A stretch of DNA of 64,000 nucleotides, taken from NCBI RefSeq assembly GCF_051903065.1, contig NZ_CP178438.1; one strand, written 5' to 3'. This DNA is from Escherichia coli. GTDB taxonomy: Bacteria > Pseudomonadota > Gammaproteobacteria > Enterobacterales > Enterobacteriaceae. This document shows, in pieces, positions 11,001-14,664 of this stretch; positions within the stretch are counted from its first letter, which is position 1; the number at the start of each line of letters is the position of its first letter. The position numbers were made by a program.

Positions 11001-14000
11001 TGTTTCTGAACACCTGACCGTATAACAGCGCTCCTTAATTTCTTTGTTAGGGACGTCCAATGCAAGTGATGGCGGCAAACATATCCATCCACTGGATGCT
11101 TACACCTGACAGATGATGGGAATATAAATTGCCACTTAAAATCAGAAATTGCGTAAGGGTATTTTCGCGCGAGCCCTGGCGGGAGACTTGTTTTACCCTC
11201 ACCTTCGCAAAGATCCTTTTCATGAAGATCACGAACCTTTTCAATATGCAATTTAAGGGGTTCAACAAGCTTTTCAGGTAACATCGTGACTCGATCTTTA
11301 CCGCCTTTGCCACGAAATACATAGACATTCCTTGACTCAAAATCGATATCTTTAACTCTTAGCATTAATAGTTCTGCTTTCCTTAGACCACAACCATATA
11401 AAAGCGAAAACATCAGTTTATAGCTACCGGATAGCTGATTGATGATACTCATTGCTTCGTTATGAGATAAGACGGATGGAACCCGTTTAGGTGCGCGTGC
11501 TTTTATCGTATCAGGTAGTAAAGTAAGTTCTCTCTGAAGTATATGTTTATACATGAAGACGATAGCGCAAAGCGCCAAGTTTTGAGTAGACGCCGTAACT
11601 TGTCGGTTTACGGCTAAATATGTCAAAAAATTAGTTACCTCTTGTTCCCCCATGTTCTTAGGATGCTGTTTTTTGTTAAACAAAATGAAGCGTTTTATCC
11701 AAAGTAAATAGGTTTTTTCAGTCTGAATTGAGTAATGCTTGGTTCGCATAACCTGTCTGATGCTTTCAAGGAAAGGTGAACGAGTCATGTAAGCTCCTTT
11801 GTTGATTATCGAGTGTGTTACTGAGACTTCTCAGTAACACCTGATGATAAGGAGGCTAAATCAAGATAAGGCATTGATATTAATAATATTACCCCATTAT
11901 GGGGTGGAGACATTACTGAGAAGTCAGTAATGTCGTAAATTAAAAGTAAATTAAGTCCTTAACTAGCTTCTTAAGTTATTGATCTTCAGTAAACTCATAG
12001 GTATAAATTTGTTTTGCCTTTCGGATGTTACTGAGAGGTCTACATAATAACTGTTAACCTCTGAGGAAGAATTGTGAAACTATCACTAATGGTAGCTATA
12101 TCGAAGAATGGAGTTATCGGGAATGGCCCTGATATTCCATGGAGTGCCAAAGGTGAACAGCTCCTGTTTAAAGCTATTACCTATAACCAATGGCTGTTGG
12201 TTGGACGCAAGACTTTTGAATCAATGGGAGCATTACCCAACCGAAAGTATGCGGTCGTAACACGTTCAAGTTTTACATCTGACAATGAGAACGTATTGAT
12301 CTTTCCATCAATTAAAGATGCTTTAACCAACCTAAAGAAAATAACGGATCATGTCATTGTTTCAGGTGGTGGGGAGATATACAAAAGCCTGATCGATCAA
12401 GTAGATACACTACATATATCTACAATAGACATCGAGCCGGAAGGTGATGTTTACTTTCCTGAAATCCCCAGCAATTTTAGGCCAGTTTTTACCCAAGACT
12501 TCGCCTCTAACATAAATTATAGTTACCAAATCTGGCAAAAGGGTTAACAAGTGGCAGCAACGGATTCGCAAACCTGTCACGCCTTTTGTACCAAAAGCCG
12601 CGCCAGGTTTGCGATCCGCTGTGCCAGGCGTTAAATTGCACAAGGAAGTCATGCGTATAATCCTGCCCATTCTATTAATTATTTCAAGTTTGCCAGCTTC
12701 AGCAATTGTTGTTCGTCACGATGTTACTGACAAAAAATATAATGCTGACGCTACGGATTTTGCACCTTTGGCAACACTTTATGTTGATGGGGCTCATGGC
12801 TCATTAATTAAGCCAGATTGGATTGTAACTGCCGCTCACGCAACTTTCTGCATAAGTCCTGGCAGTTACCTCCGCTTAAATAATGGCTATCACAAAGTTG
12901 AAAGCGTTTTCGTTCATAAAGACTATCAACCCAGTAAAAGTCACGACATCGCTTTAATAAAATTAGTAAATCCAATAAATGATGTAAAACCGGCTAATCT
13001 TTACGAACAAACGAATGAGCTCGCAAAAATAACTTGGTTTATCGGTGTCGGCGGTACTGGAAATGGGCTGACCGGACAAATTGTCGATAACTATGAAAAT
13101 GGTGGGGTTTTACGAAAAGCTCAGAATCAAATCGAACAAGCAGAAGGGCCGCTATTAAAATTTAAATTTGATAGAGATGATGTAGCTTTGCCATTAGAGG
13201 GGGTTTCAGGTAGTGGTGATAGTGGCGGCCCGGCATATTCCACCATTGACGGGACGCATTACTTACTTGGTATTAGCTCAAGAGTTGAAGGTGGGGATAT
13301 CGGGGAATACGGTGTCATGGAAGTGTATTCTAGAGTCTCATTTTTTACGTCTTGGATTGAAAAAATCACTGCAGGTGAAGAAGCTTTGCAGCAGCAATTG
13401 GCATTTCCCAAATTGCAGCGCCTTCCTGCAGGACTCACCGAACAGATTTTACCCCAAGTCTGTGCTGTTATTAGCTTGAAACCAAATGCAGTTTAACAAG
13501 TTTCTTAATTTTGTTCTGGCAATAAACCAGAGCTTATTTTCAGTGAGGTCTTCACTGAATTGGCGCTACCATTTTAAATAGAACATAGGAACTTCTAAAT
13601 GAAATGCATATTTTTGATTTTACTGGTTATAGCCTTTTCAGCTAACGCAATAATCATCAGGCATGATACGTCAGACGAAGATTATCAAAAGTTAGCAAAA
13701 AGCGATAATTCTACTGTTACTTTCTATGGTGTCTATAAAGGCGAAGATATTGTTGCGGGAACCGGAAGTATCATCGCCGACAAATGGATTGTTACTGCTG
13801 CGCACGTTGCTAATTACTTAACTAAAGGTGGCAAAGTTCAATTTAAGGATGCTTTTTATACAATTGAAAAAATTGTAAAGCATCCACTTTGGAAAGATCA
13901 GCAACTACCTAATGATATAGCTCTTGTTAAATTATCTTCTGCTATTGAAAACGCGACAATTGCTAAGTTGAATGACTTACCAAACGAAGCTGGCAAAATT

Positions 14001-14664
14001 GCAACTTTCGTCGGGCGTGGTGATCATGGGAATGGTGTTACTGGAGTTGTCGGTGCGGATAAACAGTTAAGAGCGGCAAACAATGTGGTGACTGTAGCAA
14101 AAGAACAGTGGGTGCAGTTTGCATTTGACGAGGGAGAGAAAGCCTTGACATTGGAAGGAATAAGTGGCCCCGGAGATTCTGGCGGGCCTGCATATATTAC
14201 CCATGCTAATTCAGTTTGTATTATTGGTGTAAGCTCGTGGCAAAATGCCGAATCAACCGGTTGGCAAGAAGGTAAGTACGGCGTTATTGAAAATTATTCA
14301 CGTATTTCACACTTCAGAAATTGGATTGAACAAACTATGTTGCAAGATTCACAGAAATCTCCTGAAGTCTGTTCTGATATTGTGTTGTAACCAAATACAA
14401 TTTAACAAGTTGCTTAATTTCGTTCCGGCCACAAACGGCGTGGCCTCGAATAGACTGCCTACGCTGCGCTGCGGCAGCCAATTAGCAAAGCGTTAGCAGG
14501 CATTCGGGGTTTTAGGGGTCTGACGCTCAGTGGAACGAAAACTCACGTTAAGGGATTTTGGTCATGAGATTATCAAAAAGGATCTTCACCTAGATCCTTT
14601 TAAATTAAAAATGAAGTTTTAAATCAATCTAAAGTATATATGAGTAAACTTGGTCTGACAGTTA

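What the first reader, a model, noticed from the sequence alone, without database searches (positions are those of the whole stretch)
13497..14498. First protease gene is followed by only the left half of an attC; the second has a complete one
The 38 nt after protease 1 (GTTTAACAAGTTTCTTAATTTTGTTCTGGC) are near-identical to the first 38 nt after protease 2 (ATTTAACAAGTTGCTTAATTTCGTTCCGGC). Only the second copy continues into a full imperfect palindrome ending ...AATTAGCAAAGCGTTAGCA. This suggests a tandem duplication or fusion placing both proteases in one cassette, which would keep them mobilised together.
Basis: seen in the sequence. Interest (0 to 1): 0.45.

Follow-up and report, generated by a model that had tools for sequence, protein, structure and literature searches.

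The report
Two proteases fused into one cassette
Two secreted protease genes in an E. coli integron have become a single mobile unit because the recombination site between them is dead; this is a known kind of event (a fused gene cassette), and here it can be traced back to marine bacteria.

Summary
An 86-nt block (13442-13527) recurs at 14351-14436 at 78% identity. It covers the last ~49 nt of each protease gene plus the first 37 nt (R''-L'') of an attC. Only the second copy runs into a complete attC (14400-14498).

No functional attC lies between the genes. There is no GTT from 13520 to 13625, the arms do not pair, and a covariance model of this attC family scores 16.9 bits there against 118.7 for attC2. 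So 12631-14492 is one fused cassette.

Related sequences add three points:
- The same pair, with the same dead site and the same outer boundaries, lies behind five different upstream cassettes. It therefore moves as a unit and predates its capture by this Tn7-like integron.
- The inter-gene sequence is probably a full-length, mutationally decayed attC (R' GTTA became ATTA, then ATCA, then AACA), not a truncated half.
- Protease 1 alone, with an intact attC of the same family, is common in Arsukibacterium-type arrays. Pair and single forms have recombined.

The genes are not a tandem duplication (37% amino-acid identity). This is a new member of a known kind, of modest interest.

The parts
10829..11788 (-). 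Integron integrase gene (319 aa, intact). It belongs to a Tn7-like transposon inserted next to glmS.
   Evidence: TIGR02249 integron integrase, 420.8 bits against a cut-off of 265. RefSeq annotates it as 'integron integrase' WP_063100060, with tnsE-A downstream. It is 42% identical to IntI1.
12054..12630 (+). dfrA1 cassette, whose attC lies at 12542-12636. The crossover G at 12630 marks the start of the protease cassette.
   Evidence: 99.5% identical to dfrA1 cassettes in hundreds of plasmids, with identity ending at 12633-12635. The bottom strand folds at -36.3 kcal/mol, z -7.8. The left boundary at 12054 is my reading of GTTAACC and was not tested.
12631..14492 (+). The fused cassette: one 5' boundary (TTAAAT...), two complete genes and one working attC.
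   Evidence: The same boundaries and content occur behind different upstream attCs and in front of different downstream cassettes in L003, L005, L027 and L029. The circular form would give R' GTTAAAT, a perfect complement of the R'' ATTTAAC of attC2.
12651..13496 (+). Protease 1: a secreted trypsin-like S1 peptidase of 281 aa. Its stop codon lies inside R'' of the dead attC.
   Evidence: PF00089 homologues. The TAAH, DIAL and GDSGGP motifs and a signal-like N-terminus are present, and dN/dS is 0.15-0.24.
13442..13527 (+). Copy 1 of the 86-nt direct repeat: the protease-1 3' tail plus R''-L'' of the attC.
13491..13589 (+). Dead attC (relic). R'' GTTTAAC and L'' are intact. The two inner hairpins are re-shaped. 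L' is decayed. The R'-equivalent 13582-13588 reads AACATAG instead of GTTRRRY.
   Evidence: There is no GTT from 13520 to 13625 and no canonical arm pairing. The covariance model gives 16.9 bits with 14 broken pairs, against 118.7 bits for attC2. The relic is collinear with the intact family. See for residual similarity.
13599..14390 (+). Protease 2: a secreted trypsin-like S1 peptidase of 263 aa. Its 3' tail is of the protease-1 type, cut short by a Lys-to-stop change.
   Evidence: homologues; the tail PEVCSDIVL*PNTI* compares with the protease-1 tail PEVCSDIGLKPNAI*, while native protease-2 tails end ...PEICPDS*. (motifs; dN/dS 0.18-0.48).
14351..14436 (+). Copy 2 of the 86-nt direct repeat.
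14400..14498 (+). attC2, the functional attC of the fused cassette. The crossover lies at G14492|T14493. It belongs to a host-specific attC family, here called attC_X.
   Evidence: The covariance model gives 118.7 bits, E 9e-27. Across 13 family members 92.9% of cells are paired, and 2 pairs show compensatory changes. The family also occurs behind unrelated genes in L004 and in Arsukibacterium genomes.
14515..19464 (.). Tn3-family transposon (blaTEM-1, tnpR, tnpA) inserted in the next cassette, 17 bp after the attC2 crossover. It is not part of the fused cassette.
   Evidence: Perfect 38-bp inverted repeats at 14515-14552 and 19427-19464, with the 5-bp duplication TTTTA on both sides. The uninterrupted sequence is present in L001 and L028.

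Best explanation
Positions 12631-14492 are one fused integron gene cassette carrying two paralogous secreted S1 proteases.

An integron integrase cuts a cassette out at the folded bottom strand of its attC. This requires R''/R' and L''/L' to pair and a GTT triplet in R' (established integron biochemistry; my own knowledge).

The site between the genes keeps R'' and L'', but its right arm no longer complements them and its R' triplet reads AAC. It can be neither folded nor cleaved. The only usable sites are the dfrA1 attC upstream and attC2 downstream, so the two genes can only be excised and inserted together.

Most likely history (inferred):
1. A protease-1 cassette with an intact attC_X, the form still common in Arsukibacterium-type chromosomal integrons, came to lie in front of protease 2.
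2. Protease 2 acquired a protease-1-type 3' tail plus attC_X by a recombination at the shared PEVC motif.
3. The internal attC was inactivated by a G-to-A change at the crossover base and then drifted at about the neutral rate.
4. The fused unit spread through several environmental arrays and was finally captured, next to dfrA1, by the integron of a Tn7-like transposon now found in E. coli and Proteus.

The 86-nt direct repeat, together with the shared protease-1 gene, still lets pair and single forms recombine homologously.
For: Shown:
- There is no GTT between 13520 and 13625. Forcing either downstream GTT into an R box gives -1.6 or -1.3 kcal/mol, and the relic arms pair no better than shuffled arms.
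- The family covariance model gives 118.7 bits for attC2 and 16.9 bits for the relic, about what the unrelated dfrA1 attC scores (13.4). In other copies the relics score 22-27.5 bits and their attC2 sites 110-118 bits.
- The pair with the same relic is found in L003, L005, L027 and L029 with identical outer boundaries but different neighbours.
- At least 10 single protease-1 cassettes carry a complete attC_X.
- Both genes are under purifying selection, with dN/dS 0.15-0.24 in all but one comparison (window vs L003 for protease 2, 0.48 at low dS) and intact catalytic motifs.

Supporting a full-length decayed site:
- The alignment with the family has a single 1-nt gap.
- The L005 relic matches at 29-30/62 positions, p<=0.0002, and at 17/31 in the right arm, p=0.0008.
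- Relics match the family at 20-27 of 55 positions in 41-96, and mismatches are biased GC-to-AT, 14-19 against 3-7.
- The R' position reads ATTA in L005, ATCA in L003, L027 and L029, and AACA in the window, against GTTA in the family.
- A single protease-2 cassette (L014) starts G|TTAGAGGAAT..., which compares with A|TTACAGGAGT... in the L005 relic.
- The window and L005 relics differ at 22% of left-half and 37% of right-half positions, about the synonymous divergence of the genes, 0.33-0.39.

Supporting recombination between the two forms:
- Protease 1 of L005 is mosaic.
- The single cassette of L017 groups with the window-type pair copies (window, L003, L027) in 100% of bootstraps, and pairs plus L017 form a clade in 90%.
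Against: - The window's own relic is not significantly similar to the family beyond position ~40 when tested alone (13/31, p about 0.14; 21-22/62, p 0.11-0.21). The case for a full-length relic therefore rests on the more conservative L005 copy and on collinearity.
- Positions 41-60 show no similarity in any copy.
- The left half differs from the family by ~5-15% and the right half by ~50-65%. Uniform neutral decay does not predict this asymmetry. I explain it by recombination with single cassettes, but that is shown only for L005.
- No unfused ancestor [protease 1-attC_X][protease 2] and no single protease-2 cassette with attC_X was found.
- Two loci (L010, L011) have the two gene families adjacent, with ~72-nt spacers that show no attC_X signal. 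An ancestral operon could also produce this.
- Excision was not tested experimentally.
Confidence: 0.8

Rival explanations
1. Truncation or replacement. The right ~60 nt of the first attC were deleted or replaced by unrelated DNA that arrived with protease 2. Only the left half is attC-derived.
For: - The window relic is not significantly similar to the family beyond ~40 nt.
- Positions 41-60 are at chance level in all copies.
- The left and right halves are conserved very unequally.
- The last ~15 nt before the protease-2 ATG resemble the ribosome-binding region of a native Shewanella homologue.
Against: - The relic has the same length as the family, and the alignment has only one 1-nt gap.
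- The L005 right arm matches at 17/31, p=0.0008.
- Relics match at 20-27 of 55 positions, against about 14 expected.
- The series GTTA, ATTA, ATCA, AACA lies exactly at the R' position.
- blastn-short found no other source for the right half in any fetched locus.
Confidence: 0.22
2. Ancestral operon. Protease 1 and protease 2 were already neighbours before becoming a cassette and were captured as one unit. The attC-like left half after protease 1 was copied in later, by gene conversion from the 3' end or from a single protease-1 cassette.
For: - Adjacent homologues (~70% identity for both genes) occur in Shewanella sp. JM162201 (L010) and in L011, with 71-74-nt spacers and no attC_X signal.
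- Recombination with single cassettes is demonstrated.
- This would explain why the left half looks young.
Against: - It does not explain why the spacer has exactly the length of an attC_X plus a cassette 5' UTR.
- It does not explain the residual right-arm similarity.
- It does not explain the R'-position relic.
- Both gene families are otherwise found mostly as separate single cassettes.
- The L010 and L011 spacers show no similarity to the relic.
Confidence: 0.12
3. Tandem duplication of one protease cassette, followed by divergence of the two copies.
For: The two genes are paralogues, and their 3' ends and attC left halves are repeated.
Against: - The proteins are 37% identical and the gene bodies 53.5% identical, against 78% in the 86-nt block.
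- Protease 2 is 57-72% identical to homologues in Shewanella and Alteromonas, some chromosomal and some single cassettes. Those homologues have different 3' tails, and where they are cassettes, different attCs.
- The two families therefore separated long before the block was shared.
Confidence: 0.03
4. The internal site is still a weak or non-canonical recombination site, so the two genes can still be separated by the integrase.
For: A truncated aadA1 attC has been reported to be recognised by IntI1 in one context (cited in PMC4670013). R'' and L'' are intact here.
Against: - There is no GTT, no arm complementarity, and 14 of 24 model pairs are broken.
- Among the loci found, protease 2 never occurs without protease 1 upstream when it carries this tail and attC.
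- The one secondary single protease-1 cassette (L017) has a complete attC, as expected from homologous rather than site-specific recombination.
Confidence: 0.03

Closest known systems
Fused gene cassettes of class 1 integrons, e.g. blaGES-1/aacA4, blaOXA-10/aadA1 and aadA1-blaOXA-9 in Tn1331 (PMC4670013, PMC8876359)
   Same: Two complete genes lie between one cassette start and one working attC. The attC of the first gene is not usable. In the published case the unit is excised as one cassette and transcribed polycistronically. The result is an operon-like, permanently linked module.
   Different: - Published cases lose part or all of the first attC by deletion (91 bp lost in blaGES-1/aacA4). 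Here the site keeps its full length and appears to have been inactivated by substitutions.
- The genes are paralogous proteases from environmental arrays, not resistance genes.
- The fusion is old (synonymous divergence ~0.4 between copies) and found in at least five arrays.
- An 86-nt direct repeat flanks the second gene.
Tn7 class 2 integron (intI2*-dfrA1-sat2-aadA1 next to tnsABCDE)
   Same: An integron with dfrA1 as first cassette sits at the end of a Tn7-family transposon with tnsA-E, inserted beside glmS.
   Different: The integrase is intact and is a different protein (42% identical to IntI1; no intI2 match in the megablast search). The remaining cassettes are environmental, with attCs of an Arsukibacterium-type family.
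Host-specific attC families of sedentary chromosomal integrons (e.g. the Vibrio cholerae repeats; my own knowledge)
   Same: attC_X is a near-identical 99-nt site repeated behind unrelated genes in one host array (L004 has four copies) and across Arsukibacterium genomes.
   Different: Here a member of such a family has travelled into a mobile integron in Enterobacterales, and a second member has died in place.

Membership tests
attC site, tested on the sequence between the genes (13491-13589) | R'' core (RYYYAAC) at the 5' end of the top strand | tested here: met
   GTTTAAC at 13491-13497
attC site, tested on the sequence between the genes (13491-13589) | R' core (GTTRRRY) with the conserved GTT at the crossover | tested here: not met
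   No GTT from 13520 to 13625. The aligned position reads AACATAG.
attC site, tested on the sequence between the genes (13491-13589) | L''/L' and R''/R' complementarity, giving a folded bottom strand with a bulged base | tested here: not met
   The arm duplex is -3.8 kcal/mol in a non-canonical register, no better than shuffled arms (77% of shuffles do as well). The bottom-strand fold does not pair the ends. 14 of 24 model pairs are broken.
attC site, tested on the sequence between the genes (13491-13589) | Detected by a covariance model of attC | tested here: not met
   A family-specific model gives 16.9 bits, against 118.7 for attC2. The general IntegronFinder and HattCI models were not available.
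attC site, tested on attC2 (14400-14498) | R'', L'', L' and R' present with canonical pairing, a bulged base and a GTT crossover | tested here: met
   R box 4 bp (7 bp in the circular form), a 3-nt bubble, an L box of 4+5 bp with one bulge, and two inner hairpins. 92.9% of cells are paired across 13 relatives, with compensatory changes at 2 pairs.
Fused gene cassette | Two complete ORFs between one cassette start and one functional attC | tested here: met
   Protease 1 (12651-13496) and protease 2 (13599-14390) are both intact and conserved, and lie between G|TT at 12630|31 and G|TT at 14492|93.
Fused gene cassette | The unit is mobilised as a whole | tested here: met
   Comparative evidence only. 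The unit has identical boundaries in five arrays with different neighbours. Excision as a circle was not tested.
Fused gene cassette | Co-transcription of the two genes | not testable with these tools
   No conserved terminator or promoter lies between the genes. RNA data would be needed.
Tandem gene duplication | The two copies are each other's closest relatives along their whole length | tested here: not met
   The proteins are 37% identical. Each has relatives at 57-91% identity elsewhere.

The most novel reading that the evidence does not exclude
Cassette fusion here would be a reversible, selected state rather than an accident. On this reading the two secreted proteases work together. The dead attC's well-kept left half and the duplicated 86-nt tail would act as homologous-recombination handles. 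These would let the module switch between a one-gene and a two-gene cassette without the integrase, and exchange parts with the abundant single cassettes. Integron arrays would then have a second, RecA-type layer of cassette remodelling.
Probability: 0.25. Interest if true: 0.5.

Novelty: new member of a known kind. Interest (0 to 1): 0.3.

Why it matters
Fused cassettes are one way integrons turn independent genes into permanent operon-like modules, and they are considered rare. Three things make this case useful:
- It is a natural example outside antibiotic resistance.
- Its history can be read from related environmental sequences: an intact single-gene form, a fused form with a decaying site, and evidence of exchange between the two.
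- It suggests that an attC can be lost by substitution at the crossover base without any deletion. Annotation that only checks for a cassette-sized spacer could miss such cases.

It also marks most cassettes of this Tn7-like integron in E. coli and Proteus as imports from marine or alkaline-habitat Gammaproteobacteria (Arsukibacterium, Pseudoalteromonas, Shewanella). What the two proteases do for the host is unknown.

Tried and rejected
- **RNA structure hiding the protease-2 ribosome-binding site.** RNAalifold and the window's minimum-free-energy fold suggested that the attC left half pairs with the protease-2 ribosome-binding site and start codon, which would couple translation. The opening-energy test was marginal in the window only (z 2.1, p 0.04) and absent in L003, L005 and L029. 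Rejected as a conserved feature.
- **Intrinsic terminator.** A terminator-like hairpin lies at 13513-13533. The stem is not kept in L005, L027 or L029. Rejected.
- **Ongoing gene conversion between the two repeat copies within one element.** Within-element identity is no higher than between-element identity. Only 2-3 sites co-vary by lineage, which is near expectation. Not supported.
- **Transition excess among relic-versus-family mismatches, as a test of descent.** The excess is weak and inconsistent (p 0.007-0.7).
- **Rfam.** It has no attC family and returned only spurious miRNA hits on the dfrA1 hairpin.
- **My first simple attC scanner and first alignment scoring.** Both were uninformative: AT-rich arms were missed and end-gap alignments were degenerate. 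They were replaced.
- **Another source for the relic's right half.** None was found among all fetched loci.
- **Literature.** Six searches found no description of this integron or of these protease cassettes. The library is limited to open-access papers.
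Full report
**Context**

The window carries a Tn7-like transposon inserted beside glmS (tnsE-A at 20859-28562, glmS at 28720-30549). At its other end lies an integron:
- an intact integron-integrase gene at 10829-11788 on the minus strand (TIGR02249, 420.8 bits);
- a dfrA1 cassette;
- the two protease genes;
- further cassettes.

The stretch 10800-14520 is 99.9-100% identical in seven complete E. coli chromosomes and one Proteus mirabilis chromosome. RefSeq annotates the two genes as 'trypsin-like serine protease' and 'S1 family peptidase'.

**The observation**

It is correct. An 86-nt block at 13442-13527 recurs at 14351-14436 with 78% identity. Its core occurs twice in the window against none expected.

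The block is far more similar than its surroundings. It scores 67/86. The gene bodies are 53.5% identical, the best 86-column window inside them scores 52/86, and the next 71 nt score 22/71. The proteins are only 37% identical.

The block comprises the last ~49 nt of each coding region and the first 37 nt of an attC (R'' and L''). The stop codon of protease 1 lies inside R''. Protease 2 has the same reading frame continued, but with a Lys-to-stop change five codons earlier (PEVCSDIVL*PNTI* against PEVCSDIGLKPNAI*).

**Is there a working attC between the genes?**

No.
- There is no GTT triplet anywhere from 13520 to 13625. The two GTTs further downstream lie inside protease 2 and give no arm pairing.
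- The bottom strand folds into small local hairpins only.
- The arms of the relic pair no better than shuffled arms.

I built a covariance model from 13 intact members of this attC family, with the canonical R-box and L-box pairing and two inner hairpins. That structure is 92.9% paired across the members, with two compensated pairs. The model gives 118.7 bits for the site after protease 2 (14400-14498). It gives 16.9 bits for 13491-13594, with 14 non-pairs, which is about what the unrelated dfrA1 attC scores (13.4 bits).

**What the site after protease 2 is**

It belongs to a host-specific attC family, which I call attC_X. Near-identical 99-nt copies follow four different genes in one metagenomic contig (L004). 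They also follow protease-1 homologues in Arsukibacterium perlucidum, Arsukibacterium sp. UBA3155, a Pseudoalteromonas MAG and several marine or freshwater metagenomes. In the circular form of the cassette, R' would be GTTAAAT, the exact complement of R'' ATTTAAC.

**The pair is one mobile unit, and it is old**

The same two genes occur with a homologous dead site between them in L003 (protease 1 91% identical), L027 (91%), L029 (protease 1 a deletion pseudogene) and L005 (81%). Every copy starts at G|TTAAATTGCA... behind a different upstream attC. Where the end is present, every copy finishes at the G of an attC_X in front of a different downstream cassette.

Both genes keep the catalytic motifs and evolve under purifying selection (dN/dS 0.15-0.24; 0.48 in the closest protease-2 comparison). 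Synonymous divergence between the window and L005 copies is 0.33-0.39. The fusion therefore long predates capture by the Tn7-like integron.

**Half a site, or a whole dead one?**

The relics have the same length as attC_X, and the alignment with it has a single 1-nt gap.

The window's own relic is not significantly similar to the family beyond about position 40. The L005 relic is: 29-30 of 62 positions (p<=0.0002) and 17 of 31 in the right arm (p=0.0008). All relics are clearly homologous to each other (63-79% identity in that part).

In a fixed register the relics match the family at 20-27 of 55 positions, against about 14 expected by chance. Mismatches are strongly biased from G/C in the family to A/T in the relic.

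At the aligned R' position the family has GTTA. L005 has ATTA; L003, L027 and L029 have ATCA; the window has AACA. The covariance scores fall in nearly the same order: 27.5 (L005), 25.7 (L027), 23.2 (L003), 22.1 (L029) and 16.9 (window).

A single protease-2-type cassette in Shewanella sp. OPT22 begins G|TTAGAGGAAT. This lines up with A|TTACAGGAGT in the L005 relic.

I conclude, at about two chances in three, that the site is complete in length and decayed by substitution. On that reading, loss of the crossover G was an early step.

The weak points are a 20-nt core with no similarity and a marked left-right asymmetry that uniform decay does not predict.

**Recombination between pair and single forms**

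Protease 1 of L005 is mosaic. Its first ~200 nt and last ~100 nt (including the tail and attC left half) are closest to single-type cassettes (90-93%). Its middle is closest to the other pair copies (93-95%). Such exchange would keep refreshing the left half of the relic from intact sites and can explain the asymmetry. It is shown only for L005.

In the protease-1 tree the four pair copies and the single cassette of the Pseudoalteromonas MAG (L017) form a clade (90% bootstrap), with L017 grouping with the window-type pair copies (100%). The synonymous distance from L017 to the window gene (0.24) is smaller than the distance between the pair copies' protease-2 genes (0.43).

The L017 attC shares an A at position -3 with the window-type attC2, and a 5-nt deletion with the attC2 of L003. 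The deletion lies in a GCTGC repeat and could recur independently.

So either L017 arose from a pair by recombination across the 86-nt repeat, or a single cassette replaced protease 1 in the pair. Either way the two forms exchange by homologous recombination.

**What remains open**

- How protease 2 obtained a protease-1-type tail plus attC_X is inferred only. A crossover at the shared PEVC motif is the likely route. Native protease-2 relatives end differently.
- No unfused ancestor and no single protease-2 cassette with attC_X was found.
- Two loci, including Shewanella sp. JM162201, have homologues of both genes side by side, with ~72-nt spacers that carry no attC_X signal. They may be older fusions or an ancestral operon.

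**Comparison with what is known**

Fused cassettes are documented and regarded as rare. They normally arise by partial or total deletion of the first attC. The blaGES-1/aacA4 fusion is excised only as a unit and is co-transcribed (PMC4670013; review PMC8876359).

The present case has the same architecture and consequence, so it is a new member of that kind. It differs in four respects: the probable mode of inactivation, the kind of genes, its age and spread in environmental arrays, and the flanking direct repeat. I found no paper describing this integron or these cassettes, but the searchable library is limited.

**Verdict**

Interest is modest.

Noticed in passing
window 14515-19464: A complete 4950-bp Tn3-family transposon (blaTEM-1, resolvase, transposase) with perfect 38-bp inverted repeats and a 5-bp target duplication, TTTTA. 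It is inserted 17 bp after the attC2 crossover, inside the next cassette. Other E. coli genomes (L001) and a metagenome contig (L028) have the uninterrupted sequence.
   Followed up: yes
window 14493-14514 + 19465-19835: The cassette after the protease pair appears to have no ORF (~390 bp) and ends in its own attC (R'' near 19748, R' GTTAAGC near 19828). Part of it (CAGTAGTTTTGTTCGGGCCTTGCTCG...) resembles a non-coding stretch in the L005 array (about 2340-2400).
   Followed up: partly
window 10829-11788 (-): The integron integrase on this Tn7-like element is intact, unlike the usual intI2 pseudogene of Tn7. It is only 42% identical to IntI1 and 48% identical to the Arsukibacterium chromosomal integrase in L016. 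Its class and origin were not determined, and I found no paper on it.
   Followed up: partly
window 9408-10483 (-): An IS3-family element (two ORFs with a programmed frameshift, per RefSeq annotation of identical DNA) lies directly beside the integrase gene. It sits between the integron and the chromosomal flank, which differs between E. coli genomes (pstS in L001, lpfA2 in L002).
   Followed up: no
L029 1150-2101: This copy of the pair is decaying. Protease 1 has an internal deletion of ~100 codons. The R' of the upstream attC reads GCTAAAT instead of GTTAAAT. The sequence just before the protease-2 start reads TTAATG instead of TAAATG.
   Followed up: no
L010 4081-5795; L011 3335-5043: Homologues of both proteases (~70% identity) lie adjacent in Shewanella sp. 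JM162201 and in a metagenome contig. Their spacers are 71-74 nt and no recognisable attC lies between or after them. In L011 the next gene starts 10 nt after protease 2.
   Followed up: partly
L008 6838-6961: A Shewanella single protease-1 cassette (70% identity) joins the same gene end (…CCAAATGCAATATAAC) to an attC of a different, host-specific family at exactly the same point in R''. This suggests that attCs can be swapped while the gene-R'' junction is kept.
   Followed up: no
L006 6001-6786: In Shewanella decolorationis, and per the protein search also in S. xiamenensis and S. seohaensis, the protease-2 homologue (66-68%) is an ordinary chromosomal gene between an esterase gene and a serine dehydratase gene. 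It is not a cassette.
   Followed up: partly
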